From a virus (Duplodnaviria > Caudoviricetes): a DNA stretch of 56,523 bases. Below the pieces are notes generated by a model. It was not told the DNA's origin. It worked only from the letters and a program-made list of their open reading frames with translations, and made no database searches. The translations under genes and the position numbers were made by a program. Below, piece by piece: positions 389 through 10,014 of the stretch (within the stretch, counting starts at the first letter, position 1; each line of letters starts with the position of its first letter). The stretch spans positions 1-56,523 of the IMG/VR virus record IMGVR_UViG_3300027749_000129. The stretch is one strand, 5' to 3'.

Positions 389-1224
389 TGACTGCCGAAA
401 TACCAAAGAAAACCAGAGCCATGCCCTCGCCTAAACGCAGGGATATATTTGGCACACCGCCCATCTTGGAGACCAAGCTGCAGGCGCGACTGAATACCCC
501 CGTAAAGCCCCTTCGCAAGCAGAAGAAGATTGTGACTGCCAAGGAATGGAAATTTGTCATGGAGCTGGTTAGTGGGGACGGGCGCATAACGCAGAAGGAA
601 GCAGCCCTACGGGCTGGCTGGACGGAAACAACGGCAGCCGGTGCTGCAGGCAGGATGACAAGCCCCGTGAAGTCTCCGCACATCGTGGCGGCGATACAGG
701 AGTACCGTGCGCAGCTATCCGCCAAGTACAATTCTAGCTACGACAGGCACATGCGGGATATGCAGGATATTAGAGACGCTGCACTTGCGGCCGGAGCATA
801 CGGTGCGGCCGTTTCAGCGGAATACCGCCGAGGGCAGGCGCTGGGCACGATCTACGTAGATAGGAAGGAAATACGCGTGGGCACCATTGATACCATGGGC
901 AAGGACGAGGTAATGCAGAAGCTGGAGCAGTTACGCCAGTTATTTGGCGCGCCTGTGCGGTCCATTATTGATATGACGCCCGAGGAGATTATTGATAATA
1001 AGATTCAGCCGGACCCAAAACCTAGTTTGTTGGAGCAAATGGCGAATGACGAAAAGCTCAGAAGGATCACTCAGCAAGCGACTCAAGGCAAATATCCCGG
1101 GCTGCAACGTTATCAGGCTAGAATCGCGGGTAGGACTAGGGATACCGGATTGCCTGATAGCAATTCAGGGGAAGGGCTGGGTGACGGTGGAATTGAAGGT
1201 GGTGGCCCGGGGGAAGAAAATTAA
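388..1224 (+). CDS. terS: Terminase small subunit (putative)
   Basis: HTH-like TQKEAALRAGW followed by AYGAAVSAEYRRGQALG, typical of TerS proteins; coupled ATG at 388. Confidence 0.65.
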   Translation: MTAEIPKKTRAMPSPKRRDIFGTPPILETKLQARLNTPVKPLRKQKKIVTAKEWKFVMELVSGDGRITQKEAALRAGWTETTAAGAAGRMTSPVKSPHIVAAIQEYRAQLSAKYNSSYDRHMRDMQDIRDAALAAGAYGAAVSAEYRRGQALGTIYVDRKEIRVGTIDTMGKDEVMQKLEQLRQLFGAPVRSIIDMTPEEIIDNKIQPDPKPSLLEQMANDEKLRRITQQATQGKYPGLQRYQARIAGRTRDTGLPDSNSGEGLGDGGIEGGGPGEEN

Positions 1225-1950: not shown

Positions 1951-2739
1951 ATGAAAATTGAACAGATTATTGAAAGCAACACGCATGCGATTAAACGGCA
2001 GGCGGCTTACTGCGCAGAAAAAGAGGGCAAGGAAGTCTTGTATTTTCTCGCAACCGGCTGTGGAGTAATTTCCGAAGGTTATCGGAAAAGCCTCCGGCAA
2101 TATAAGTTTAAAACCGCTATAAAAAAACCGTCTTTTTTGACCGCTTTGACCGTCGTCAATTCCGGCGAAACGGTCAAATACAAGGGAAAGCACACGGGCT
2201 ATTCGCACACCTATAGCAGGTTTTTGTTGTACGTAAGCACTGCTAAAAAAACTGCGCTTGGCTGGGAATGGTCTACGCCGGCCCCACAAGGGGCCACGGG
2301 AAAAAATGCAGCGGCAACGCTTGCCACGCATGCCGCCGCTGCGGGGTGGACACTTGGCGAAAAACCAGTGCGCGGGGATGCCGAGCTTTTTTACCAGACT
2401 GCCAACCTTGATGGCAAAACCGCGCTGGTCGGCTATATCGCCCGGCGCGGGAAAGTTGATTTCCACGCCGCCACGGCGGCCGATGCATGCACCGGGCTGG
2501 AGATTAAAATTGAAAAGCTGGCCGCAGCACGCGCGGCCGCACCGGCAAAAAAACTGGCACCCGTGACGGCCGCCGGATTGCGCGATAAATTTGGATTCTG
2601 CCAGCAAGGGATTGAAACAACGGCCCGGGAACTCGGGCTTGATGTGCAGGGCACTTATACCAAGGGCGAGATTCTGGCAGCCGCGCGCGGCCGCACGTTA
2701 TCGCATGCCGCCGATTTTGCTTCCTTCAGGCGCTGGTAA
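1951..2739 (+). CDS. Hypothetical early protein
   Basis: 262-aa ORF with CAGGAG RBS and AT-rich leader. Confidence 0.7.
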   Translation: MKIEQIIESNTHAIKRQAAYCAEKEGKEVLYFLATGCGVISEGYRKSLRQYKFKTAIKKPSFLTALTVVNSGETVKYKGKHTGYSHTYSRFLLYVSTAKKTALGWEWSTPAPQGATGKNAAATLATHAAAAGWTLGEKPVRGDAELFYQTANLDGKTALVGYIARRGKVDFHAATAADACTGLEIKIEKLAAARAAAPAKKLAPVTAAGLRDKFGFCQQGIETTARELGLDVQGTYTKGEILAAARGRTLSHAADFASFRRW

Positions 2740-2772
2740 AAAAGTATTAAATTAGTTTGCAGCTAAAAAGTA

Positions 2773-2802
2773 TTGCGCTATCTATTAATATACTTTTATA
2801 CT
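2773..2802 (+). promoter_or_regulatory. Sigma70-like promoter
   Basis: TTGCGC-18 nt-TATACT in an AT-rich intergenic region. Confidence 0.5.
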
Positions 2803-2841
2803 GGCCATAGGCCATCCCGGCCAATACAGGAGATTTAAAAA

Positions 2842-3459
2842 ATGTTAATCGCTACTGATCGCGCGGCCGCCGTACATATATCCACCATGACTGGAAAACT
2901 GGCCGGAATTTCCGCAATAAATTCCAATACGCTCACGAATACCTTTTGCAGCAAGATGCGTGGCACTACTGCAATATGTAAATTCTGCTATAGCGCGGCC
3001 ATGTTGCAGGGTTCGCGAAAAAACTGCGCGCCAAGTTTTGAGCGCAATAGCGTGTTGCTCTCGGCCGCTCTTATTCCAGTGGACCGCATGCCGTACATAA
3101 ACGCGGCCATTTTCCGTTTTCATGGCCATGGTGAACTGATCAATTCGGTTCATCTTGAGAATATCTACCGGATCGCAGAAAAGAATCCAGCCACTACCTT
3201 TACGCTGTGGACCAAGCGCCGGGATTTAATCCGTACCGGGCGCGCCCGGCCGGATAATTTTATCCTGATATATTCTAATCCTTCACTGGATAAGGTTATG
3301 GCCACGCCCCCCGCCCGGTTTGATAAAGTATTTAATAACGTGCCGGCGGATTATGCCGGCCCGGCGAACTGCACGGGGCAAAAATGTATAGACTGCAGAA
3401 TCTGTTACACGCCGGGCGGCCAGTCTGTAGTCATTGAGCACGTAAAGAGGCGCAGTTAA
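2842..3459 (+). CDS. GP88-like Cys-cluster (radical-SAM-related) phage protein
   Basis: FCSKM...ICKFCY, FRFHGHGEL, TLWTKR and C-terminal C..CIDCRIC. Confidence 0.6.
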   Translation: MLIATDRAAAVHISTMTGKLAGISAINSNTLTNTFCSKMRGTTAICKFCYSAAMLQGSRKNCAPSFERNSVLLSAALIPVDRMPYINAAIFRFHGHGELINSVHLENIYRIAEKNPATTFTLWTKRRDLIRTGRARPDNFILIYSNPSLDKVMATPPARFDKVFNNVPADYAGPANCTGQKCIDCRICYTPGGQSVVIEHVKRRS

Positions 3460-3571: not shown

Positions 3572-4672
3572 ATGAATATGCCAGCCAATGTTCTGACACA
3601 AGCCAATAAAGAATGGGCCAGCCGTCCGGCCGAAGAACGTTTTTTAAATCTGAACGCAATGCAGGAACATTTTGATTATGTACGCGATCACAGCCGCTCG
3701 GCTGTGGTATCAAGCCGCGCTGTTTATGCCAGACCCTCACCTGATAATCAGGGGTTGCTTATTGCAGGGCCATCCGGTGCCGAGTACAGCCCAACGCATC
3801 ATGCCTTCGGGCAGCTCGCCACTCTGGCCGGCGCGCCCGCCGGCTACCTGCGGCAGCTCCCCGCCCCGATGGCCGCAGACTGTATCAACTACGGCCTGCA
3901 AGTCGATAGGGATATCGAAGACGTTGGCCTACTGTTAACTCGCAATGGTGGCGCGCCGGTAATCCGGGCGGCCACTGGTCCACGTTATGGAAGGGTGTGG
4001 AATTCGGATGTTATCCGCGCCCTGCGCGACCGGTTCGGCGATGGCGTAACGGGTGCTTTCCGCGTGCCCGGCGAATTCGGCCAGCGCGTTGAAGTTACCG
4101 GGGCGAATACCACCCTTTATGCATCGGACCAAGACTGTTTCGTTTTCCTCGCCGATGAGCAAAACAGGATTGTGGTGCCCGGCCGCCGCGACGGCCAGTC
4201 TGGCACACTGGCAAGGGGCTTTTTTGTCAGCAACTCCGAAGTCGGTGCCGGCAGTCTGAAAATCAGAACTTTCCTTTTTGACTATGTATGCAGCAACCGG
4301 ATTGTTTGGGGGGCCGACAATGTTCAGGAGTTGAGCATAAGGCATACAGCCAGTGCGCCAGATCGTTTTCTGGAACAGGTGCAGCCCGCCCTGCTGGAAT
4401 ATGCGCAGTCCAGCGCCGCCGGGATTGAGCTGACCCTCAAAAATGCGCAAGCGCTGAAACTGGACAAGGTCCAAGAATTTTTAGCTAAACGTTTTGGACC
4501 GCGCGTAGCGGCGAAGATTGAAGCGGCGCACGTGCTGGATGAAGGCCGCCCGATTGAGACAGTGTGGGATGCGGTGACAGGAGCCACGGCGTATGCGCGC
4601 ACGATTGCATACACTGCCGCCCGCGTGGAGTTTGAGGCCGCAGCCGGCGATATGCTGAAGCTGGCCGCGTAA
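3572..4672 (+). CDS. DUF932-like phage/plasmid protein
   Basis: HHAFGQLATLAGAPAGYL, GFFVSNSEVGAGS, YVCSNRIVWG, IRHT motifs. Confidence 0.7.
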   Translation: MNMPANVLTQANKEWASRPAEERFLNLNAMQEHFDYVRDHSRSAVVSSRAVYARPSPDNQGLLIAGPSGAEYSPTHHAFGQLATLAGAPAGYLRQLPAPMAADCINYGLQVDRDIEDVGLLLTRNGGAPVIRAATGPRYGRVWNSDVIRALRDRFGDGVTGAFRVPGEFGQRVEVTGANTTLYASDQDCFVFLADEQNRIVVPGRRDGQSGTLARGFFVSNSEVGAGSLKIRTFLFDYVCSNRIVWGADNVQELSIRHTASAPDRFLEQVQPALLEYAQSSAAGIELTLKNAQALKLDKVQEFLAKRFGPRVAAKIEAAHVLDEGRPIETVWDAVTGATAYARTIAYTAARVEFEAAAGDMLKLAA

Positions 4673-5060: not shown

Positions 5061-5291
5061 TAAAAATTGGCCCCGGGGGGGGAGACGCGGAGGCAAAAGC
5101 CCGATTTTGCACAATCAAAACGGTCTGAAACGGAATTGATATTTCATGGGGGGGATTTCCCTGCAGGAATGTTTCACGTGTTACATTCCTTGAAAATAGG
5201 CCCCCTATGTTTAGAAAGCAAAACCGGTATAAATTTTTGCGCAATTTTTTGTCACTTGCGTTCCACGGTAACGGAAGGTAGACTGTTTGCC

Positions 5292-5666
5292 ATGACCCTT
5301 GATCCGCGATGCTGCCCCTGTGGTAATCCTCTCCGCCCCTTGCAGCGCAACTGCCTGTCGTGCCATGCCTTGTCCATGCGGAAATACCGTGCGTCCACCC
5401 CCTTGTCAGACGTCCAGCGGGCCAAGGACAATTGTCGGAGTTACGCGCATGTGTACCTTCGTCGTGGCAAGCTAACCCGTGAGCCATGTTCCGTCTGTTC
5501 AAACCCCGTGGCCCAGATGCATCATGCTGACTACGCGAAGCCTTTGCAGATAACGTGGTTGTGCAGACTTTGTCATTTGGCATTGCACAAGACTAAGGCA
5601 GTTGTGCCCAAGCGGCGGCTAGATGTTGCCCAGCGGGATCCTTTTGCACTAGAGACGTCTGTATGA
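5292..5666 (+). CDS. HNH-like zinc-binding endonuclease directly upstream of terL
   Basis: CSVC...HHADYAKPLQITWLCRLCHLALH; ATGA overlap with terL; in-frame ATG at 5292 chosen over 5067. Confidence 0.65.
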   Translation: MTLDPRCCPCGNPLRPLQRNCLSCHALSMRKYRASTPLSDVQRAKDNCRSYAHVYLRRGKLTREPCSVCSNPVAQMHHADYAKPLQITWLCRLCHLALHKTKAVVPKRRLDVAQRDPFALETSV

Positions 5667-8023
5667 CAAACCCTGCAATGTCTGTTGAGTCGGAGTCGGA
5701 GGTATTACGACTTGAGTTACGTCTGGCCCAGATAGAGGCCCAGAGCCGTGCGAAGCGGAACTTTATCGACTTTGCCAAATATGTGTGGCCTGAAGCGATA
5801 TTGGGTAACCACCACCAGAAGATGGCGTCGGCGTTTGACAGGATTGCCAATGGCACGTTGAAGCGTTTGATTGTCAACATGGCACCTCGGCACACGAAGA
5901 GTGAGTTCTCATCCTATCTGTTGCCTGCGTTTATCATGGGCCGTGGCCCGCGAACCAAGATCATTCAAGCGACGCACACGGGGGAGTTGGCGGTACGGTT
6001 TGGTCGTAAGGTGAGGAACCTTATGGATTCTGACTCGTACAAGCAGTTGTTTCCGGGATCGGAGTTGAAGGCTGACAGCAAGGCGGCGGGTCGGTGGGAC
6101 ACGAGTGAGGGTGGGGAGTACTTTGCTGTGGGTGTGGGGGGTGCGATGACGGGCCGTGGTGCGGACTTGTTGATTATTGACGACCCGCATTCGGAGCAGG
6201 ATGCGATGTCGGCATTGGCATTGGACAATGCGTGGGAGTGGTACAGCTCTGGTCCTCGGCAGCGATTGCAGCCGGGCGGGGCAATTGTGATTGTGATGTG
6301 CATGACGGGGGATACTCTGGTTTTGATGTCAGATGGGACACAGACGCCCTTATCTGAAATACGGCCCGGGGATAAGGTAGCTACTTTTGAAAAAGGGAGG
6401 CTAGCCACGGCTAGGGTTAATAACTGGAAGTCAAATGGTTATGACTCCATAGCCAAGATACAAACACAATCTGGTAGAATACTTCGTGCGAATGCAAGAC
6501 ATCCTTTTCTTGTAATGAATGCGGGAGTGTTGGAATGGAAACGAGTAAGCCAGTTGAGAGTGGGGGACGAACTTGTAGTATTGAAGGGTGCAATAGGCCT
6601 CCCAGATCAAAAACAAAACTTGGCAAGTGTGGACCCTGCCAAGCAAGTGCTAGTTACCACCGAAAAAACCCAGACGCTCCATACCACCCCCTTGGCCACC
6701 ACGGCAAATGGAAAGGAAAGACCTGCGGATGCGGTGAACCCGTGCTCTGCAAGGGGTTCTGTGTTAAATGCTACCGAGACCACTATCCCCGTTCAAAGAG
6801 AGCACCCGAGCAAAGCCGCGCCTTGCGTATCAAGTACCGGTATGGAATCACTGTTGGACAATATGAGTGGATGGTTCAAGAGCGTCAAAACCGTTGTGAT
6901 GTCTGCGGTGAAGCGCCTTCAGATAGAAACACTCGGGCGCATTGGAACGGCAAGCTTTGTATTGACCACGACCACGACACGGGAGCAGTGCGAGGACTCC
7001 TGTGCAATGACTGCAACCTCGCCATCGGATATGGCAAGACGCCAGAGGTACTCGAACGAGCTGCAGAGTATCTCCGACTTCACAATCGATCCAATAGCCT
7101 CGATCCTACCTGATGGTAAGGAAGAGGTTTTTGATGTTGAGATTGATAGGACAGGTAATTTCATTGCCAATGGGGTAGTTAGTCACAATACTCGATGGGG
7201 CACGAAGGACCTGACAGCGAGGCTGATCAAATCGCAGTCCAGCCATAATGCTGACCGCTGGGAAGTTATTGAATTCCCTGCCATTTTACCATCAGACAAG
7301 CCCCTTTGGCCAGAGTTTTGGAAGTATGAGGAGTTGATGGGGGTAAAGGCTTCGTTGTCCCCGCAGAAGTGGCAGGCGCAGTGGCAGCAGCAGCCGAGCA
7401 ATGACGAGGGGGCCATTCTGAAGCGGGAGTGGTGGAAGCGTTGGGAGAAGGATTACACGCCTAACCTTGAGTATGTGATTCAGTCGTATGACACGGCGTA
7501 CTCGAAGAAGGAGACGGCTGACTTTTCGGCGATCACGACGTGGGGGGTGTTTTACCCGGATCAGGACAGTGGGGCGCACATCTTGTTGTTGAACGTGAAG
7601 AAGGGCCGGTGGGACTTCCCGGAGTTGAAGCGTGTGGCGAAGGAAGAGTATATCTATTGGCAGCCGGACAATGTGTTGATCGAGGCCAAAGCAACGGGGA
7701 CCACGCTCCAGCAGGAGTTGAGGAAGATGGGGATTCCTGTGACGATGTACTCGCCGGGCGGCAGGCGCGCGGGTCAGGACAAGGTATCGAGGGCCAATGC
7801 GATTGCGACGATATTGGAGTCGGGGATGGTATGGGCACCGGACACTGACTGGGCGGACGAGTTGATTGAGGAGTGTGCGGCGTTCCCGAACGGGGACAAC
7901 GACGACTTGGTGGATTCGATGGTGATGGCGCTGATGCGTTTCAGGGCGGGTAACTTCATTAGTTTGTTGGTGGACGAGGACGATGTGCCGCGTAACGAAG
8001 GTATTGTACCGGAGTATTATTAA
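5663..8023 (+). CDS. terL: Terminase large subunit, intein-containing
   Basis: Walker A NMAPRHTKS, Walker B LLIIDDP, coupling motif IVIVM|TRW split by the intein, nuclease motifs SYDTA, IEAKATG, DDLVDS. Confidence 0.95.
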   Translation: MTNPAMSVESESEVLRLELRLAQIEAQSRAKRNFIDFAKYVWPEAILGNHHQKMASAFDRIANGTLKRLIVNMAPRHTKSEFSSYLLPAFIMGRGPRTKIIQATHTGELAVRFGRKVRNLMDSDSYKQLFPGSELKADSKAAGRWDTSEGGEYFAVGVGGAMTGRGADLLIIDDPHSEQDAMSALALDNAWEWYSSGPRQRLQPGGAIVIVMCMTGDTLVLMSDGTQTPLSEIRPGDKVATFEKGRLATARVNNWKSNGYDSIAKIQTQSGRILRANARHPFLVMNAGVLEWKRVSQLRVGDELVVLKGAIGLPDQKQNLASVDPAKQVLVTTEKTQTLHTTPLATTANGKERPADAVNPCSARGSVLNATETTIPVQREHPSKAAPCVSSTGMESLLDNMSGWFKSVKTVVMSAVKRLQIETLGRIGTASFVLTTTTTREQCEDSCAMTATSPSDMARRQRYSNELQSISDFTIDPIASILPDGKEEVFDVEIDRTGNFIANGVVSHNTRWGTKDLTARLIKSQSSHNADRWEVIEFPAILPSDKPLWPEFWKYEELMGVKASLSPQKWQAQWQQQPSNDEGAILKREWWKRWEKDYTPNLEYVIQSYDTAYSKKETADFSAITTWGVFYPDQDSGAHILLLNVKKGRWDFPELKRVAKEEYIYWQPDNVLIEAKATGTTLQQELRKMGIPVTMYSPGGRRAGQDKVSRANAIATILESGMVWAPDTDWADELIEECAAFPNGDNDDLVDSMVMALMRFRAGNFISLLVDEDDVPRNEGIVPEYY
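6299..7189 (+). mobile_element. Intein in TerL (297 aa)
   Basis: Block A CMTGDTLVLMSDG, block B LRANARHPF, block F/G VFDVEIDRTGNFIANGVVSHN followed by Thr; removal restores IVIVMTRWG. Confidence 0.92.
6535..7113 (+). CDS. Endonuclease VII-like homing endonuclease, overprinted in a shifted frame inside the TerL intein
   Basis: KYRYGITVGQYEWMVQERQNRCDVC...IDHDHDTGAVRGLLCNDCNLAIG; GGGAG at 6523-6527, 7 nt before ATG; offset +2 from the terL frame. Confidence 0.88.
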   Translation: METSKPVESGGRTCSIEGCNRPPRSKTKLGKCGPCQASASYHRKNPDAPYHPLGHHGKWKGKTCGCGEPVLCKGFCVKCYRDHYPRSKRAPEQSRALRIKYRYGITVGQYEWMVQERQNRCDVCGEAPSDRNTRAHWNGKLCIDHDHDTGAVRGLLCNDCNLAIGYGKTPEVLERAAEYLRLHNRSNSLDPT

Positions 8024-8067
8024 CCCGTAGAATGGGGCGAAGTCTTCATTCTTTGAAAGGCAAGCCT

Positions 8068-10014
8068 ATGAACACTCCTTCTGCAAAAGACCTTCTGCAA
8101 GCGATGCCTGTCAAAATGGCAGAGGGTGGTGAAATATCCTCGGGCCTTGCTAATGCAACCAAGCCGGACGGGATTGGGGCGGATCAGTACTACAAGAACA
8201 TTGCTGCGTACGTTGCTACGCAGTCAGACCCCTTAATAGGATTGCAAGAAGCGTCTAAGAACGGGGTCAGCATGGCGGATGCGGCGAAAGCAATAGGTCA
8301 GGATAAGCTCAACGCGTATTTGAACATTGACTTGAATACGGAGAAGACGCCTACCCCTACGGCTTCGGGCTATACTTCTGCACGCGAGAACATGTACGTG
8401 GGTCCTAATGCGATATACGCCACGGGACCGGACAGCGGGCAAGCTGGGCTTAACGCTAAGATCCAAGCGGCCGCAAAGCAGTATGTAGGGAACCCAACAG
8501 CGCTACAAAACCTGTTCATAGCAAACGGCCTTAACATTGACGATATAGTGCGTGCGGGCGTGGACCCCACGGTCATGTTGTCGATTACGCCAAAGAAAGT
8601 AGACAAACCGCCTACGACCGGCGTATTCCCTCCTGTTACACTCCCTCCTGTCTACCAGCCCCTACCCACACCGCCACCACTTTATCCCACGGGCCAGCCT
8701 GCGCTGGACGTAAACTTCCGCAACAGTGCGCCGCGTAGTGCATGGGACCCGGTCTACGGGTATTCGTACACGCCTGCTGCCAAACTGCTCTCGGCCACCG
8801 GATCAGGATTTGGTTGGATGCCGCCGTCTGTGACTAGCCGTCCGCGAGACTTGTTGCGTACACCGATGGCCAATACCTCTGCCTCACAGCAGTACGCACA
8901 AAACAGCGCGGCTCAGGACAGGGCATTGGCGAATGCGTATAGGACAAGCGGCCTTGGTGCGAACCCCTCTGCCTTCTACGACTGGCGTAGCCGGTTGCGT
9001 GGGGGTGAGTTCGGTGGGGATCAGACTACCCCACTTAATACGGACGCGTTTAATGCGAGCTTTACGGACTGGGCAAAAACAGAGGCGGACAAGCAGGCGA
9101 TAGCCAAGGCCAACAAGGGTACGCTTGCAAACACCTCATCTTCTGATTTTGTCCCCCAGTACGCTACCGGGGGATACATCACAAAAAAAGCTGAGGGGGG
9201 TAGCATTGATACTGCCCCCGTTAAACCTGCGCCAGATGCCGTTACACTTGCGCCAAACTCCAACGTTGAGCCGGAATCCAAACCGGTAGACTCGACAAAG
9301 CAGTATAAGGATGTGTTCCAAGATGAACCCTTGGTGGACCGTGTAGGGGAATACCTTGGGGGGTTTAAGGACTTGGTGAAGTACCGTTTATCTGATGGTA
9401 AGGGTTTAGATCAGCACATAACCTACAATAACCAATTGAAGTCCCAGTTCCGTGAAGCATATCCCGAGCTTAAGGATGACAAGCAACGTAGTGGTTTGCT
9501 GGATGCAGCGGTTAAGTATGCGGGAGCCTACGACTGGGCGGCACGTCCTAATGTAAGTCCTGAAGATGCGCGGTCCATGGCCCGTGCTTACCAACTCTAT
9601 GACTACAACACCAGCGACCGTACTCCGTCGAATGAGCTGTCTGACTACTACCGCAATCTGGCAGGTGTAGAGCAGGGCATTAAGCACAGAGCGGAAGGCC
9701 GTCGGTTAAGCGAGTCGGAGTTGATGAAAGAAGCGCTTAACTACGCGATATCGCAGACTGGTGGCAATATGCCATTGACCCGACCAGAGCTATGGAATCG
9801 GGAATACGAAAAAGGTATGAAGACGAAAAAAGCTGACGGCGGCCTGATCAGAAAGTACGACGAAGGTGGTGATGTCTCGCCAATGAGCTACGACGAGTTA
9901 GCGGCGCAGATGCAGAGGGTTGGTGAAGCGCCGAGAGAGGCCCAGACCCCTGAATCGCGGACCACGGTCCGGGAACAGACTGAAAGCGCGAAGATGCTGG
10001 AGCGTGTACAATAA
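8068..10014 (+). CDS. Large putative virion-associated modular protein with five GG motifs
   Basis: Long ORF between terL and portal; MAEGG, YATGG, KAEGG, KADGG, YDEGG; AAAGG RBS before ATG 8068 (track start 8032). Confidence 0.6.
   Translation: MNTPSAKDLLQAMPVKMAEGGEISSGLANATKPDGIGADQYYKNIAAYVATQSDPLIGLQEASKNGVSMADAAKAIGQDKLNAYLNIDLNTEKTPTPTASGYTSARENMYVGPNAIYATGPDSGQAGLNAKIQAAAKQYVGNPTALQNLFIANGLNIDDIVRAGVDPTVMLSITPKKVDKPPTTGVFPPVTLPPVYQPLPTPPPLYPTGQPALDVNFRNSAPRSAWDPVYGYSYTPAAKLLSATGSGFGWMPPSVTSRPRDLLRTPMANTSASQQYAQNSAAQDRALANAYRTSGLGANPSAFYDWRSRLRGGEFGGDQTTPLNTDAFNASFTDWAKTEADKQAIAKANKGTLANTSSSDFVPQYATGGYITKKAEGGSIDTAPVKPAPDAVTLAPNSNVEPESKPVDSTKQYKDVFQDEPLVDRVGEYLGGFKDLVKYRLSDGKGLDQHITYNNQLKSQFREAYPELKDDKQRSGLLDAAVKYAGAYDWAARPNVSPEDARSMARAYQLYDYNTSDRTPSNELSDYYRNLAGVEQGIKHRAEGRRLSESELMKEALNYAISQTGGNMPLTRPELWNREYEKGMKTKKADGGLIRKYDEGGDVSPMSYDELAAQMQRVGEAPREAQTPESRTTVREQTESAKMLERVQ

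What the first reader, a model, noticed from the sequence alone, without database searches (positions are those of the whole stretch)
6299..7189. TerL intein whose homing endonuclease (Endo VII-like) is overprinted in a different reading frame
Seen: the 297-aa intein has complete splicing blocks (C1...HN/T+1), but its central ~190 aa in the terL frame show no endonuclease motif. The same DNA read in the +2 frame (6535-7113) is a clean 192-aa protein with several CxxC motifs and the T4 endonuclease VII signature (CDVC...IDHDH.TG.VRGLLC..CN). It has a GGGAG RBS, and an in-frame stop at 6475 argues for independent initiation. It begins just after block B and stops just before block F. Established: canonical inteins carry the endonuclease in-frame, usually LAGLIDADG or HNH. 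Inference: this is a dual-coding mobile element where splicing and homing are separate proteins, and about 580 nt must stay open in both frames. I recall out-of-frame intein endonucleases being reported in actinobacteriophages, so this is rare rather than certainly unprecedented.
Basis: partly seen in the sequence, partly recalled or inferred. Interest (0 to 1): 0.92.

Follow-up and report, generated by a model that had tools for sequence, protein, structure and literature searches.

The report
Terminase intein with overprinted nuclease gene
A freshwater phage's DNA-packaging gene carries a self-splicing protein insert whose middle also encodes, in a shifted reading frame, a separate DNA-cutting enzyme that probably spreads the insert; the layout is real and under selection, but was first described in a 2025 preprint.

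Summary
Observation confirmed. terL (5663..8023) holds a 297-codon class-1 intein (6299..7189) at VM|TRW. A 192-codon ORF (6535..7113, offset +2) inside it matches Pfam Endonuclease_7 (E 3.5e-19).

The two-frame layout is conserved and selected:
- All 52 of 52 distinct homologous inteins keep both frames open.
- The nested frame is under purifying selection. The terL frame there is a stop-free, disordered linker.
- Recoding the nested ORF with the phage's own codon usage leaves terL open in only 0.54% of trials.

Sequencing error is excluded. An independent metagenome assembly carries the intein with substitutions only.

The element looks mobile:
- 76 of the 79 closest terL relatives that could be scored lack it.
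- Near-identical intein units sit in terL genes only 73-83% identical.
- One lake sample appears to hold both the intein-bearing and the exact intein-less allele.

It is not new in kind. Gosselin et al. (bioRxiv 2025) described the same intein family, site and frame in actinobacteriophages. The site is Kelley et al.'s 2016 TerL6-f. This scan has noted the kind 38 times on other DNA. What is added is wider occurrence and selection evidence. Verdict: new member of a known kind.

The parts
5663..6298 (+). terL N-extein (ATPase part, ends ...GGAIVIVM)
   Evidence: ORF. PHROG 38 and PHROG 4758 terminase large subunit. 81% aa identity to the intein-less terL of Phage DSL-LC04.
6299..7189 (+). Class-1 intein, 297 codons in the terL frame (C1 ... 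H296 N297, followed by T+1)
   Evidence: Intein_splicing PF14890 E 5.4e-17. Invariant C1, H68, H296, N297 in 39 aligned homologues. A contig in run X7 joins 6298 directly to 7190, skipping exactly these 891 nt.
6299..6598 (+). N-terminal splicing (Hint) lobe, intein residues 1-100, blocks A and B
   Evidence: AlphaFold2 pLDDT 81-97 per 10-residue block, all beta strands. terL-frame column identity 0.51-0.90.
6523..6527 (+). Shine-Dalgarno-like GGGAG, 7 nt before the nested start codon
   Evidence: Sequence. An SD-like 4-mer at -16..-7 is present in 43 of 52 distinct homologues.
6535..7113 (+). Nested 192-codon ORF in the +2 frame: Endonuclease VII-like (His-Me finger) putative homing endonuclease
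   Evidence: PF02945 E 3.5e-19. PHROG 2914. Start codon at the same position in 52 of 52 (ATG 48, GTG 4). pN 0.244 against pS 0.752.
6574..6771 (+). N-terminal Cys-rich region of the nested protein (aa 14-79): presumed zinc-knuckle DNA-binding part
   Evidence: Invariant C14, G18, C19, C32, C35, C64, C66, C76 in 39 homologues. No Pfam family matched. The DNA-binding function is inferred.
6826..7077 (+). Catalytic Endonuclease VII core of the nested protein (aa 98-181)
   Evidence: Pfam match range. Invariant C121, C124, D144, H145, H147, C157, C160, N161. These align to the CxxC, DHDH and CNxCN segments of T4 endonuclease VII 1e7d (E 1.8e-4). Foldseek hits Hpy99I (E 2.2e-4) and T4 endo VII (prob 0.98-0.99).
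6599..7024 (+). terL-frame read-through linker (intein residues 101-242): disordered, held only to contain no stop codon
   Evidence: pLDDT below 50 with no secondary structure. terL-frame pN 0.367 against pS 0.324; close pairs dN/dS 1.10. Only one invariant column (G216) between residues 94 and 263.
7076..7189 (+). C-terminal splicing lobe, intein residues 260-297, blocks F and G
   Evidence: pLDDT 94-95 for residues 261-297. terL-frame column identity 0.82-1.00 from 7115 onward.
7190..8023 (+). terL C-extein (starts TRWGTKDL; nuclease domain)
   Evidence: Terminase_6C PF17289 E 9.7e-12. 73-84% aa identity to 80 IMG/VR relatives.

Best explanation
This is a mobile intein in the large terminase gene of an uncultured freshwater tailed phage. 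The same DNA encodes its two functions in two reading frames.

Read in the terL frame, the 891-nt insert gives a functional 'mini-intein'. An N-terminal and a C-terminal Hint lobe are joined by a disordered loop of about 142 residues. The intein excises itself from the TerL precursor and joins ...IVIVM to TRWG..., which restores the ATPase C-motif. This step is inferred from intact catalytic residues and from terL being essential.

Read in the +2 frame, the loop-coding DNA is a 192-codon gene for an endonuclease VII-type (His-Me finger) nuclease with an N-terminal Cys-rich DNA-binding part. It is translated on its own, by internal initiation at a Shine-Dalgarno sequence and an ATG built on the invariant Trp80 codon of the intein. 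This is inferred from conservation.

The nuclease is the element's homing endonuclease. It would cut intein-less terL alleles during co-infection, and recombinational repair would then copy the whole intein-plus-nuclease unit into them. This is inferred from the distribution pattern.

Selection acts on whichever frame matters locally. The terL frame is constrained at both ends of the intein. The nested frame is constrained in the middle, where the terL frame is kept only free of stop codons by biased codon choice in the nested gene.
For: Anatomy: Pfam, PHROG and the motifs are as stated.

Conservation: 70 loci had a full-length intein match, giving 52 distinct intein DNAs (the window, Gordonia phage Angelicage and 50 IMG/VR sequences).
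- All 52 have 0 stops in the terL frame, C1, terminal HN and +1 TRW.
- All 52 have an open stretch of 178-221 codons in the +2 frame, against 26-121 codons in the third frame.
- The nested start sits at the same codon in 52 of 52 (ATG 48, GTG 4). An SD-like motif is present in 43 of 52.

Selection (51 sequences, 1275 pairs):
- Diversity at nested codon positions 1/2/3 is 0.293/0.224/0.515.
- Nested frame: pN 0.244, pS 0.752. terL frame on the same DNA: pN 0.367, pS 0.324.
- In 33 close pairs, dN/dS is 0.21 for the nested frame against 1.10 for the terL frame.

Stop avoidance:
- Recoding with window codon usage gives a mean of 4.23 terL-frame stops, and zero stops in 0.54% of trials.
- Only 2 of 12 Leu codons end in TA or TG, against 72% in the window's long ORFs.
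- All 14 of 14 free-standing homologues have 2-22 stops in the equivalent frame.

Hand-off: the terL frame is the better conserved up to about 6582 and again from about 7087. The nested frame is better conserved between those points.

Structure:
- Intein residues 1-100 and 261-297 have pLDDT 81-97. Residues 101-242 are below 50.
- The nested protein has mean pLDDT 75 and hits Hpy99I and T4 endonuclease VII.

Not an artefact: contigs of two runs not flagged as possible sources cover the element with no indels (tables 4 and 8). X6 has 0 differences. X7 has one 955-nt contig over 6265-7219 with 10 substitutions.

Microdiversity repeats the pattern. Before 6535, 4 of 5 substitutions are synonymous in terL. 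Inside the nested ORF, 4 of 5 are synonymous in the nested frame and non-synonymous in terL.

Mobility:
- Of the 80 closest C-extein relatives, 76 are intein-less, 3 carry intein plus nuclease, and 1 is undetermined.
- 17 pairs have nuclease identity of at least 95% aa inside exteins 73-83% identical. Intein DNA is 97-99.5% identical against 63-85% in the adjoining N-extein.
- In run X7, a 64-nt contig joins 6298 to 7190 (skipping 891 nt) at depth 50.8. The intein contig is at depth 29.9, and the flanks are at 85 and 73.
Against: Nothing has been shown biochemically. No translation, splicing or cleavage data exist for this or, as far as I read, any family member. The preprint offers predicted structures and phylogeny only.

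For this particular copy there is no sign of recent transfer. Its nearest intein relative (L003) is only 70% identical in the nuclease and 79% in the splicing lobes, which is similar to the extein identity of 79%. That fits long vertical co-descent.

The within-ORF synonymous shuffle is a weak test for the window alone: 34.7% of shuffles stay open, because codon usage is already adapted.

The X7 junction contig has only 30 letters on its shorter side, one below the tool's own 31-letter bridging rule. Contig depths are single figures per contig. The polymorphism is therefore a strong hint, not proof.

9 of 52 homologues lack an SD-like 4-mer as I defined it.

dN/dS estimates in overlapping frames are biased, because sites are not independent between the two frames.
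Confidence: 0.85

Rival explanations
1. Assembly or sequencing artefact: a canonical in-frame endonuclease intein that two compensating frameshift errors make look out of frame.
For: The window is a metagenomic assembly (IMG/VR record). One related contig (L029) does show a frame change near the intein's C-end.
Against: 52 of 52 distinct sequences from independent samples share the same +2 offset, with both frames open. Cultured, finished phage genomes show it too: Angelicage and Chandler. Runs X6 and X7, not flagged as possible sources, show no inserted or missing letters over 6000-7500 (table 4). An in-frame stop lies 3-93 nt upstream of the nested start in all 52.
Confidence: 0.01
2. The nested ORF is a decaying relic that is no longer translated. 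The element is effectively a mini-intein that persists only because terL must stay open.
For: Selection on terL alone would keep the terL frame open. One genome-collection locus (L200) has an interrupted nested frame with terL still open, so decay does happen. The window's copy shows no recent transfer.
Against: Selection on terL cannot keep the other frame open or conserve its amino acids. Nested-frame pN/pS is 0.244/0.752, and the third codon position is the most variable. The Zn-binding Cys and D-H-x-H/N residues are invariant in 39 sequences. Recoding the terL-frame peptide never leaves the nested frame open (0 of 5000). The start codon is kept in 52 of 52.
Confidence: 0.05
3. The nuclease is made not by internal initiation but by programmed ribosomal frameshifting out of the terL frame. 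The product would be an N-extein/N-intein-nuclease fusion.
For: Both ORFs are on one mRNA and one strand, and phages use frameshifting elsewhere. In a broken prophage copy (L199) the N-lobe of the intein is fused in frame to the nuclease.
Against: A stop codon in the nested frame lies just upstream of the start in all 52, only 3-15 nt away in 24 of them. ATG or GTG plus an SD-like motif are conserved at one position. The first 16 or so nested codons are poorly conserved, as expected of a true N-terminus. I did not search for a slippery site.
Confidence: 0.04
4. The nested nuclease is a domesticated helper rather than a homing enzyme. It could be a T4 gp49-like branch resolvase serving DNA packaging, or a weapon against competing phages, co-expressed with the terminase.
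For: T4 endonuclease VII is a junction resolvase needed for packaging (established knowledge; also stated in PMC7344957, passage). The fold and active site match it. The location inside terL would couple its expression to packaging.
Against: 76 of the 79 closest terL relatives that could be scored lack the whole element, so it is dispensable. It travels as a unit with the intein into divergent terL genes. It carries an extra N-terminal Cys-rich region, conserved across the family, that T4 endo VII does not align to (the match covers profile positions 110-170 only). A homologous nuclease (30% identity over 93% of its length) sits in an intron-type gap of terL in Vequintavirus phages, which is another selfish context.
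Confidence: 0.08

Closest known systems
[quoted passage not shown]
   Same: Same intein family, same insertion point, same '+2 / frame 3' offset, and the nested start in the same place. Angelicage terL reads ...VLVM|CMTGDTPV...GLVSHN|TRWH, with a 151-codon nested ORF at offset 2. Identity to the window is 57% in the splicing lobes and 54% in the nuclease, although the exteins are only 28% identical. A 145-nt stretch is 76.6% identical in DNA.
   Different: The host group and habitat differ. The window is a freshwater viral contig, and its extein is closest (78-81% aa) to Phage DSL-LC04, which is annotated as infecting Gammaproteobacteria. The nested protein is longer (192 against 151 aa), with a second Cys-rich module at its N-terminus (alignment). 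The parts of the preprint I read give no frame-specific selection analysis and call the distribution 'ambiguous'. Its supplements could not be seen.
TerL6-f intein of mycobacteriophages (Kelley et al., mBio 2016, PMC5050341; passages read)
   Same: It is inserted in the ATPase coupling C-motif of Terminase_6-type TerL. Chandler gp6, the paper's model protein, reads ...MILIQ|CMTGDTPV...GLVSHN|TRWH. That is the same site and the same intein family, and it holds a 152-codon nested Endo VII-like ORF at offset 2.
   Different: The terms 'endonuclease VII', 'Pipefish' and 'Phlyer' do not occur in that paper's main text (0 occurrences each). The nested gene was therefore not described there.
Intron-type endonuclease VII-like homing endonuclease in terL of Vequintavirus phages (for example Escherichia phage MaxBurger, MZ501093)
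   Same: A homologous nuclease (30% identity over residues 5-183, including the N-terminal Cys-rich part) sits inside terL and is annotated 'putative homing endonuclease'.
   Different: There terL is split into two ORFs (683..1111 and 2025..3113) and is annotated as a two-piece join. The terL frame is not open across the nuclease gene, there is no Hint domain, and the insertion lies right after the Walker B-like FDEG. The splicing would be at RNA level, not protein level.
T4 endonuclease VII (gp49; PDB 1en7, 1e7d) and Hpy99I (3fc3): His-Me finger nucleases
   Same: The CxxC...CxxC zinc site and the D-H-x-H...N active site align. The folds match (Foldseek prob 0.98-1.00).
   Different: T4 endo VII is a free-standing, structure-specific junction resolvase, and Hpy99I is a restriction enzyme. 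Neither is nested in another gene. The window's protein has about 95 extra N-terminal residues.
Fractured genes: split inteins with a free-standing VSR-like homing endonuclease gene between the halves (Dassa et al. 2009; known to me only as cited in the preprint, not read)
   Same: A free-standing-type endonuclease gene occupies the place of the intein's endonuclease domain and is translated separately from the splicing parts.
   Different: There the host gene and the intein are physically split into two genes. Here the host frame reads through the nuclease gene, so the intein stays contiguous.

Membership tests
Class-1 intein (Hint fold) | N-terminal nucleophile (Cys/Ser1) in block A | tested here: met
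   C1 of CMTGDT at 6299. C1 is invariant in 39 homologues and present in 52 of 52.
Class-1 intein (Hint fold) | Block B histidine | tested here: met
   H68 in ANARHPF is invariant. The residue three before it is Asn, not the usual Thr (the usual motif is recalled, not tested).
Class-1 intein (Hint fold) | Penultimate His, terminal Asn, and a +1 Cys/Ser/Thr | tested here: met
   ...VVSHN|TRW. H296 and N297 are invariant. +1 TRW is present in 52 of 52.
Class-1 intein (Hint fold) | Hint fold formed by the N- and C-terminal lobes | tested here: met
   PF14890 at 62.5 bits against a cut-off of 35.8. AlphaFold2 gives all-beta lobes with pLDDT 81-97 at residues 1-100 and 261-297. The intein model was not submitted to a fold search.
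Class-1 intein (Hint fold) | Protein splicing actually occurs | not testable with these tools
   Inferred from the essential host gene and intact residues. The exact 891-nt presence/absence junction fits the predicted boundaries.
Endonuclease VII family (Pfam PF02945, His-Me finger) | Profile match above the curated threshold | tested here: met
   68.9 bits against a cut-off of 23.6, E 3.5e-19, profile positions 3-81 of 82.
Endonuclease VII family (Pfam PF02945, His-Me finger) | Four-Cys zinc site and the D-H-x-H ... N catalytic residues | tested here: met
   C121, C124, C157, C160, D144, H145, H147 and N161 are invariant in 39 sequences. They align to the corresponding segments of T4 endo VII 1e7d.
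Endonuclease VII family (Pfam PF02945, His-Me finger) | Beta-beta-alpha-metal fold | tested here: met
   The model has strands 142-145 and 152-156 followed by helix 158-167. Foldseek hits Hpy99I and T4 endo VII. TM-scores are low (0.27-0.35) because only the core matches.
Homing endonuclease (functional class) | Patchy presence among close host-gene alleles | tested here: met
   76 intein-less, 3 with the element, 1 undetermined among the 80 closest C-exteins. Run X7 appears to hold both alleles.
Homing endonuclease (functional class) | Near-identical element in divergent host genes (recent lateral transfer) | tested here: met
   Met for the family: 17 pairs. Not shown for the window's own copy, whose nearest relative is 70% identical.
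Homing endonuclease (functional class) | Site-specific cleavage of the element-free allele | not testable with these tools
Out-of-frame Endo VII-like HEN inteins (Gosselin et al. 2025) | Nuclease ORF inside the intein, same strand, frame 3 relative to intein and extein | tested here: met
   Offset 2 in the window, Angelicage, Chandler and all IMG/VR homologues.
Out-of-frame Endo VII-like HEN inteins (Gosselin et al. 2025) | Sequence homology of both the splicing lobes and the nuclease to the described members | tested here: met
   57% and 54% aa identity to Angelicage. tblastn E 1e-39.
Out-of-frame Endo VII-like HEN inteins (Gosselin et al. 2025) | Actinobacteriophage host (the scope of the original description) | tested here: inconclusive
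   The host is unknown. The closest extein relative is annotated as infecting Gammaproteobacteria. The same layout occurs in genome records of Bradyrhizobium, Oribacterium and Dysosmobacter as well as Mycolicibacterium.
Group I intron carrying a homing endonuclease (considered, rejected) | Host reading frame interrupted; no Hint domain | tested here: not met
   The terL frame is open through the element and Hint lobes are present. Contrast MaxBurger. No RNA-family search was run.

The most novel reading that the evidence does not exclude
Overprinting may be an adaptive 'hostage' strategy rather than an accident of insertion. The nuclease gene lies inside the read-through loop of an intein in an essential gene, so every indel in it, and any change that creates a stop in the terL frame, also kills terL. 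The nuclease would then be shielded from most of the decay that normally ends a homing cycle. This would explain why one intein/nuclease pair, with the same +2 offset and the same Trp-anchored start codon, persists in phages and prophages assigned to several bacterial phyla. The X7 lake population would be a natural case of an invasion, or a stable polymorphism, in progress.
Probability: 0.3. Interest if true: 0.6.

Novelty: new member of a known kind. Interest (0 to 1): 0.38.

Why it matters
The architecture was published as a preprint in 2025 for actinobacteriophages, so the window does not reveal a new kind of element.

What it adds:
- The same intein/nuclease pair is common well outside that group: 50 further distinct sequences in IMG/VR, and prophage-like loci in genome records labelled with several phyla.
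- The nested frame is under clear purifying selection, while the host frame there is only a stop-free disordered tether.
- A natural population seems to hold both the occupied and the empty allele.

This is a clean natural example of long same-strand dual coding with a visible hand-off of constraint between frames. It also supports the view that inteins acquire endonucleases by capturing free-standing genes.

In practice, gene callers will miss these nested genes, and such inteins will be mislabelled as mini-inteins or as decaying.

Tried and rejected
- Pfam on the intein read in the terL frame found no nuclease family. PCNA_C at E 0.043 is chance level.
- The single-sequence PDB search found only Hpy99I. 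T4 endonuclease VII appeared only with the family profile.
- The within-ORF synonymous shuffle was a weak null for the window (34.7% of shuffles stay open), because the ORF's codon usage is already adapted. I replaced it with recoding from the window's general codon usage.
Only the N-extein side and the protein-level extein identity are used.
- No long co-conversion tract was seen next to the intein on the N side.
- Vequintavirus terL hits looked at first like further examples, but they have an intron-type, split-ORF layout.
- The Pectobacterium phage CB7 paper (PMC7344957, passages) mentions inteins, endonuclease VII and terminase separately. It is not relevant.
- Two further literature searches for out-of-frame intein endonucleases returned only the Gosselin preprint and an unrelated group I intron database paper. 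Subscription journals are not covered.
- Pfam on the neighbouring ORFs gave DUF932 for 3572..4672, and nothing for 5067..5666 or 8032..10014.
- RNA run X23 has only three short contigs on the stretch (6869-7019, 7097-7247, 7363-7394). DNA carry-over cannot be excluded, so I do not count it as evidence of transcription.
- Parts of the stretch without RNA cover, and the small-share runs, are not used for habitat or expression claims.
- MAG labels are not taken as host assignments, because phage contigs can be mis-binned.
- I did not search for slippery sites, internal promoters or RNA families, and I did not run a fold search on the intein model.
- Script crashed on a partial locus after printing most rows. 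The counts come from the rewritten script.
- Loci left out of the 52-sequence counts:
  - those whose intein match was not full length: L029 (frame change after intein residue 264), L035, L036, L044, L048, L088 (match from residue 23) and L091-L097;
  - the 14 free-standing homologues L050-L063, and the distant L098-L102;
  - 18 exact duplicates.
  - L001 was also left out of the selection statistics.
- The supplements of both papers could not be opened. The preprint's supplemental tables and figures may list more members or analyses than I saw.

Full report
**What is there.**

The window is an IMG/VR virus record of 56,523 bases, about 95% complete by CheckV. It is 50.2% G+C. Runs that hold it are freshwater and lake metagenomes.

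The large terminase gene terL is one ORF, 5663..8023, 786 codons. It matches PHROG 38, terminase large subunit (E 1.6e-98), and Pfam Terminase_6C and Intein_splicing (aa 220-509, E 7.4e-16).

The intein is 6299..7189 (297 codons). It begins CMTGDT, ends VVSHN, and is followed by TRW.

Inside it, offset by +2 nt relative to terL, lies a 192-codon ORF, 6535..7113.
- GGGAG sits 7 nt upstream, and an in-frame TAG lies at 6475.
- The ORF matches Pfam Endonuclease_7 (E 3.5e-19, aa 98-181) and PHROG 2914, endonuclease VII.
- The intein read in the terL frame matches no nuclease family.

**Is the double reading frame more than chance?**

Yes.
- Recoding the nested protein with the window's general codon usage puts on average 4.23 stop codons into the terL frame. 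terL stays open in only 0.54% of 5000 trials.
- Recoding the terL-frame peptide never leaves the nested frame open (0 of 5000).
- The nested gene avoids the dangerous codons. Only 2 of 12 Leu codons end in TA or TG, against 72% in the window's long ORFs.
- All 14 of 14 free-standing homologues have 2-22 stops in the equivalent frame.
- A more conservative shuffle that keeps the ORF's own codon usage is uninformative for the window alone (34.7% stay open). For relatives it gives 0.65-8.7% for six of the nine tested and 27-71% for the other three.

**Conservation.**

Three IMG/VR scans and the phage collection gave 70 loci with a full-length match to the intein. These are 52 distinct intein DNAs: the window, Gordonia phage Angelicage and 50 environmental sequences.
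- All 52 have no stop in the terL frame, C1, terminal HN and +1 TRW.
- All 52 have a +2-frame open stretch of 178-221 codons. The third frame reaches only 26-121 codons.
- The nested start codon is at the same place in 52 of 52 (ATG 48, GTG 4). It is formed by the last base of the preceding codon plus the TG of the invariant Trp80 codon of the intein.
- 43 of 52 have a Shine-Dalgarno-like 4-mer at -16..-7.
- All 52 have a nested-frame stop 3-93 nt upstream.

One related contig (L029) changes frame near the intein's C-end. It was not counted, along with other partial loci.

**Which frame is selected where.**

Across 51 sequences (1275 pairs):
- Nucleotide diversity at nested codon positions 1, 2 and 3 is 0.293, 0.224 and 0.515.
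- The nested frame has pN 0.244 and pS 0.752.
- The terL frame on the same DNA has pN 0.367 and pS 0.324.
- In 33 close pairs, dN/dS is 0.21 (nested frame) against 1.10 (terL frame).

Column conservation shows a hand-off.
- The terL frame is the better conserved from 6299 to about 6582, and again from about 7087.
- The nested frame is the better conserved in between.

Between intein residues 94 and 263, only one terL-frame column is invariant. In the nested protein the Cys ligands and the D144, H145, H147 and N161 residues are invariant.

AlphaFold2 agrees.
- The terL-frame intein has confident Hint lobes (residues 1-100 and 261-297; pLDDT 81-97). They are joined by a 142-residue stretch with pLDDT below 50 and no secondary structure.
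- The nested protein folds (mean pLDDT 75). It matches Hpy99I (E 2.2e-4) and T4 endonuclease VII (prob 0.98-0.99).
- A family profile aligns to the CxxC, DHDH and CNxCN segments of T4 endonuclease VII (E 1.8e-4).

**Not an artefact.**

Contigs of two runs that are not flagged as possible sources cover the element without any inserted or missing letter.
- X6 is identical.
- X7 has one contig over 6265-7219 with 10 substitutions.

Those substitutions repeat the selection pattern.
- Upstream of 6535, 4 of 5 are synonymous in terL.
- Inside the nested ORF, 4 of 5 (including one from RNA run X23) are synonymous in the nested frame and amino-acid-changing in terL.

**Mobility.**

Among the 80 IMG/VR loci with the closest C-exteins (73-84% identity), 76 are intein-less, 3 carry intein plus nuclease, and 1 is undetermined. 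The closest named relative, Phage DSL-LC04, is also intein-less.

Within the family, 17 pairs have nucleases at least 95% identical inside exteins only 73-83% identical. Intein DNA is 97-99.5% identical next to N-extein DNA that is 63-85% identical.

In run X7, a 64-nt contig joins 6298 directly to 7190. That is the predicted intein boundary exactly, skipping 891 nt.
- The junction contig is at depth 50.8 and the intein contig at 29.9.
- The shared flanks are at 85 and 73.
- The occupied and empty alleles therefore seem to coexist.
- The shorter side of that junction is 30 letters, one below the tool's bridging rule, so I treat this as a strong hint.

The window's own copy has no near-identical relative; the best is L003, at 70% in the nuclease. 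Recent movement of this particular copy is not shown.

**Mechanism proposed.**

1. The terL mRNA is translated in the terL frame into a precursor.
2. The precursor's Hint lobes, tethered by the disordered loop, splice out and restore the C-motif. This is inferred.
3. Ribosomes also initiate at the internal SD/ATG and make the 192-aa nuclease. This is inferred from conservation.
4. That nuclease cuts empty terL alleles in co-infecting relatives, and repair copies the unit in. This is inferred from distribution.

Rivals are weighed in their own section: artefact, dead relic, frameshift fusion and domesticated resolvase.

**Comparison with what is known.**

The architecture is in print as a preprint. 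[quoted passage not shown] They name Angelicage, Affeca, Keitabear and Sedona.

I checked Angelicage directly. It has the same site, the same CMTGDT...SHN intein and the same offset.

The site is the TerL6-f, C-motif site of Kelley et al. 2016. Their model protein, Chandler gp6, carries the same intein and a 152-codon nested ORF. Their main text does not mention endonuclease VII.

A homologous nuclease also sits in an intron-type gap of terL in Vequintavirus phages.

Beyond those reports, the layout occurs in 16 of 21 loci from the prokaryote genome collection with both frames intact.
- These include isolate records labelled Bradyrhizobium tropiciagri, Oribacterium sp., Dysosmobacter sp. and Mycolicibacterium vanbaalenii.
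- One further locus has a broken nested frame, one has a broken terL, and three are free-standing.
- MAG labels are not host evidence.

This scan has already recorded the kind in 38 findings from at least 37 other genomes.

**Verdict.**

The feature is real, selected and probably active as a family. In kind it is a new member of a known class. Its added value is breadth of occurrence, frame-resolved selection and a natural presence/absence polymorphism.

Noticed in passing
L046:988-4392, L049:2021-5482, L189:701-4480: Some related terL genes carry more than one intein. L046 and L049 each have, besides the Endo VII-type intein, a second insert with LAGLIDADG_3 matches (in the N-extein and the C-extein respectively). 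L189 (1260 aa) shows Hint signals at three places.
   Followed up: partly
L199:2008-4207 (911-kb contig of an Alphaproteobacteria MAG): A broken prophage copy. terL is cut into three ORFs. A 202-aa ORF fuses part of the intein's N-lobe in frame to an intact-looking Endo VII-like nuclease. The C-lobe plus C-extein is a separate ORF that is itself frameshifted further on.
   Followed up: partly
L200:2732-3295: The terL frame is open (1001 aa, apparently two inteins), but the nested nuclease frame is interrupted. This is a candidate example of decay of the nested gene by point mutation.
   Followed up: no
L104:683-3113 (Escherichia phage MaxBurger): terL is split into two ORFs with a 196-aa Endo VII-like 'putative homing endonuclease' between them. 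The record annotates it as a two-piece join. This is an intron-type layout with a nuclease homologous to the window's over nearly its full length.
   Followed up: partly
L190 and L191: Genome records of two different genera (Oribacterium sp. and Dysosmobacter sp., with similar isolate codes) give identical match coordinates and identities for the terL-intein-nuclease locus. They may hold the same phage, or this may be cross-contamination.
   Followed up: no
window 5067-5666: A 199-aa ORF abuts the terL start. It has Cys pairs and a C-terminal ...HHADY...WLCRLCHLALH stretch that looks HNH-like by eye, but it had no Pfam match at E <= 0.01.
   Followed up: partly
window 6299-7189 compared with 5663-6298 and 7190-8023: The intein is 49.6% G+C and the terL exteins are 55.8%. 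The window as a whole is 50.2%.
   Followed up: no
window 6248-6279, run X7: A 1510-nt contig of a related phage diverges after 6279 into sequence that codes IVVVM directly followed by TRWG. A second, more distant intein-less terL is therefore present in the same lake sample (table 7).
   Followed up: no
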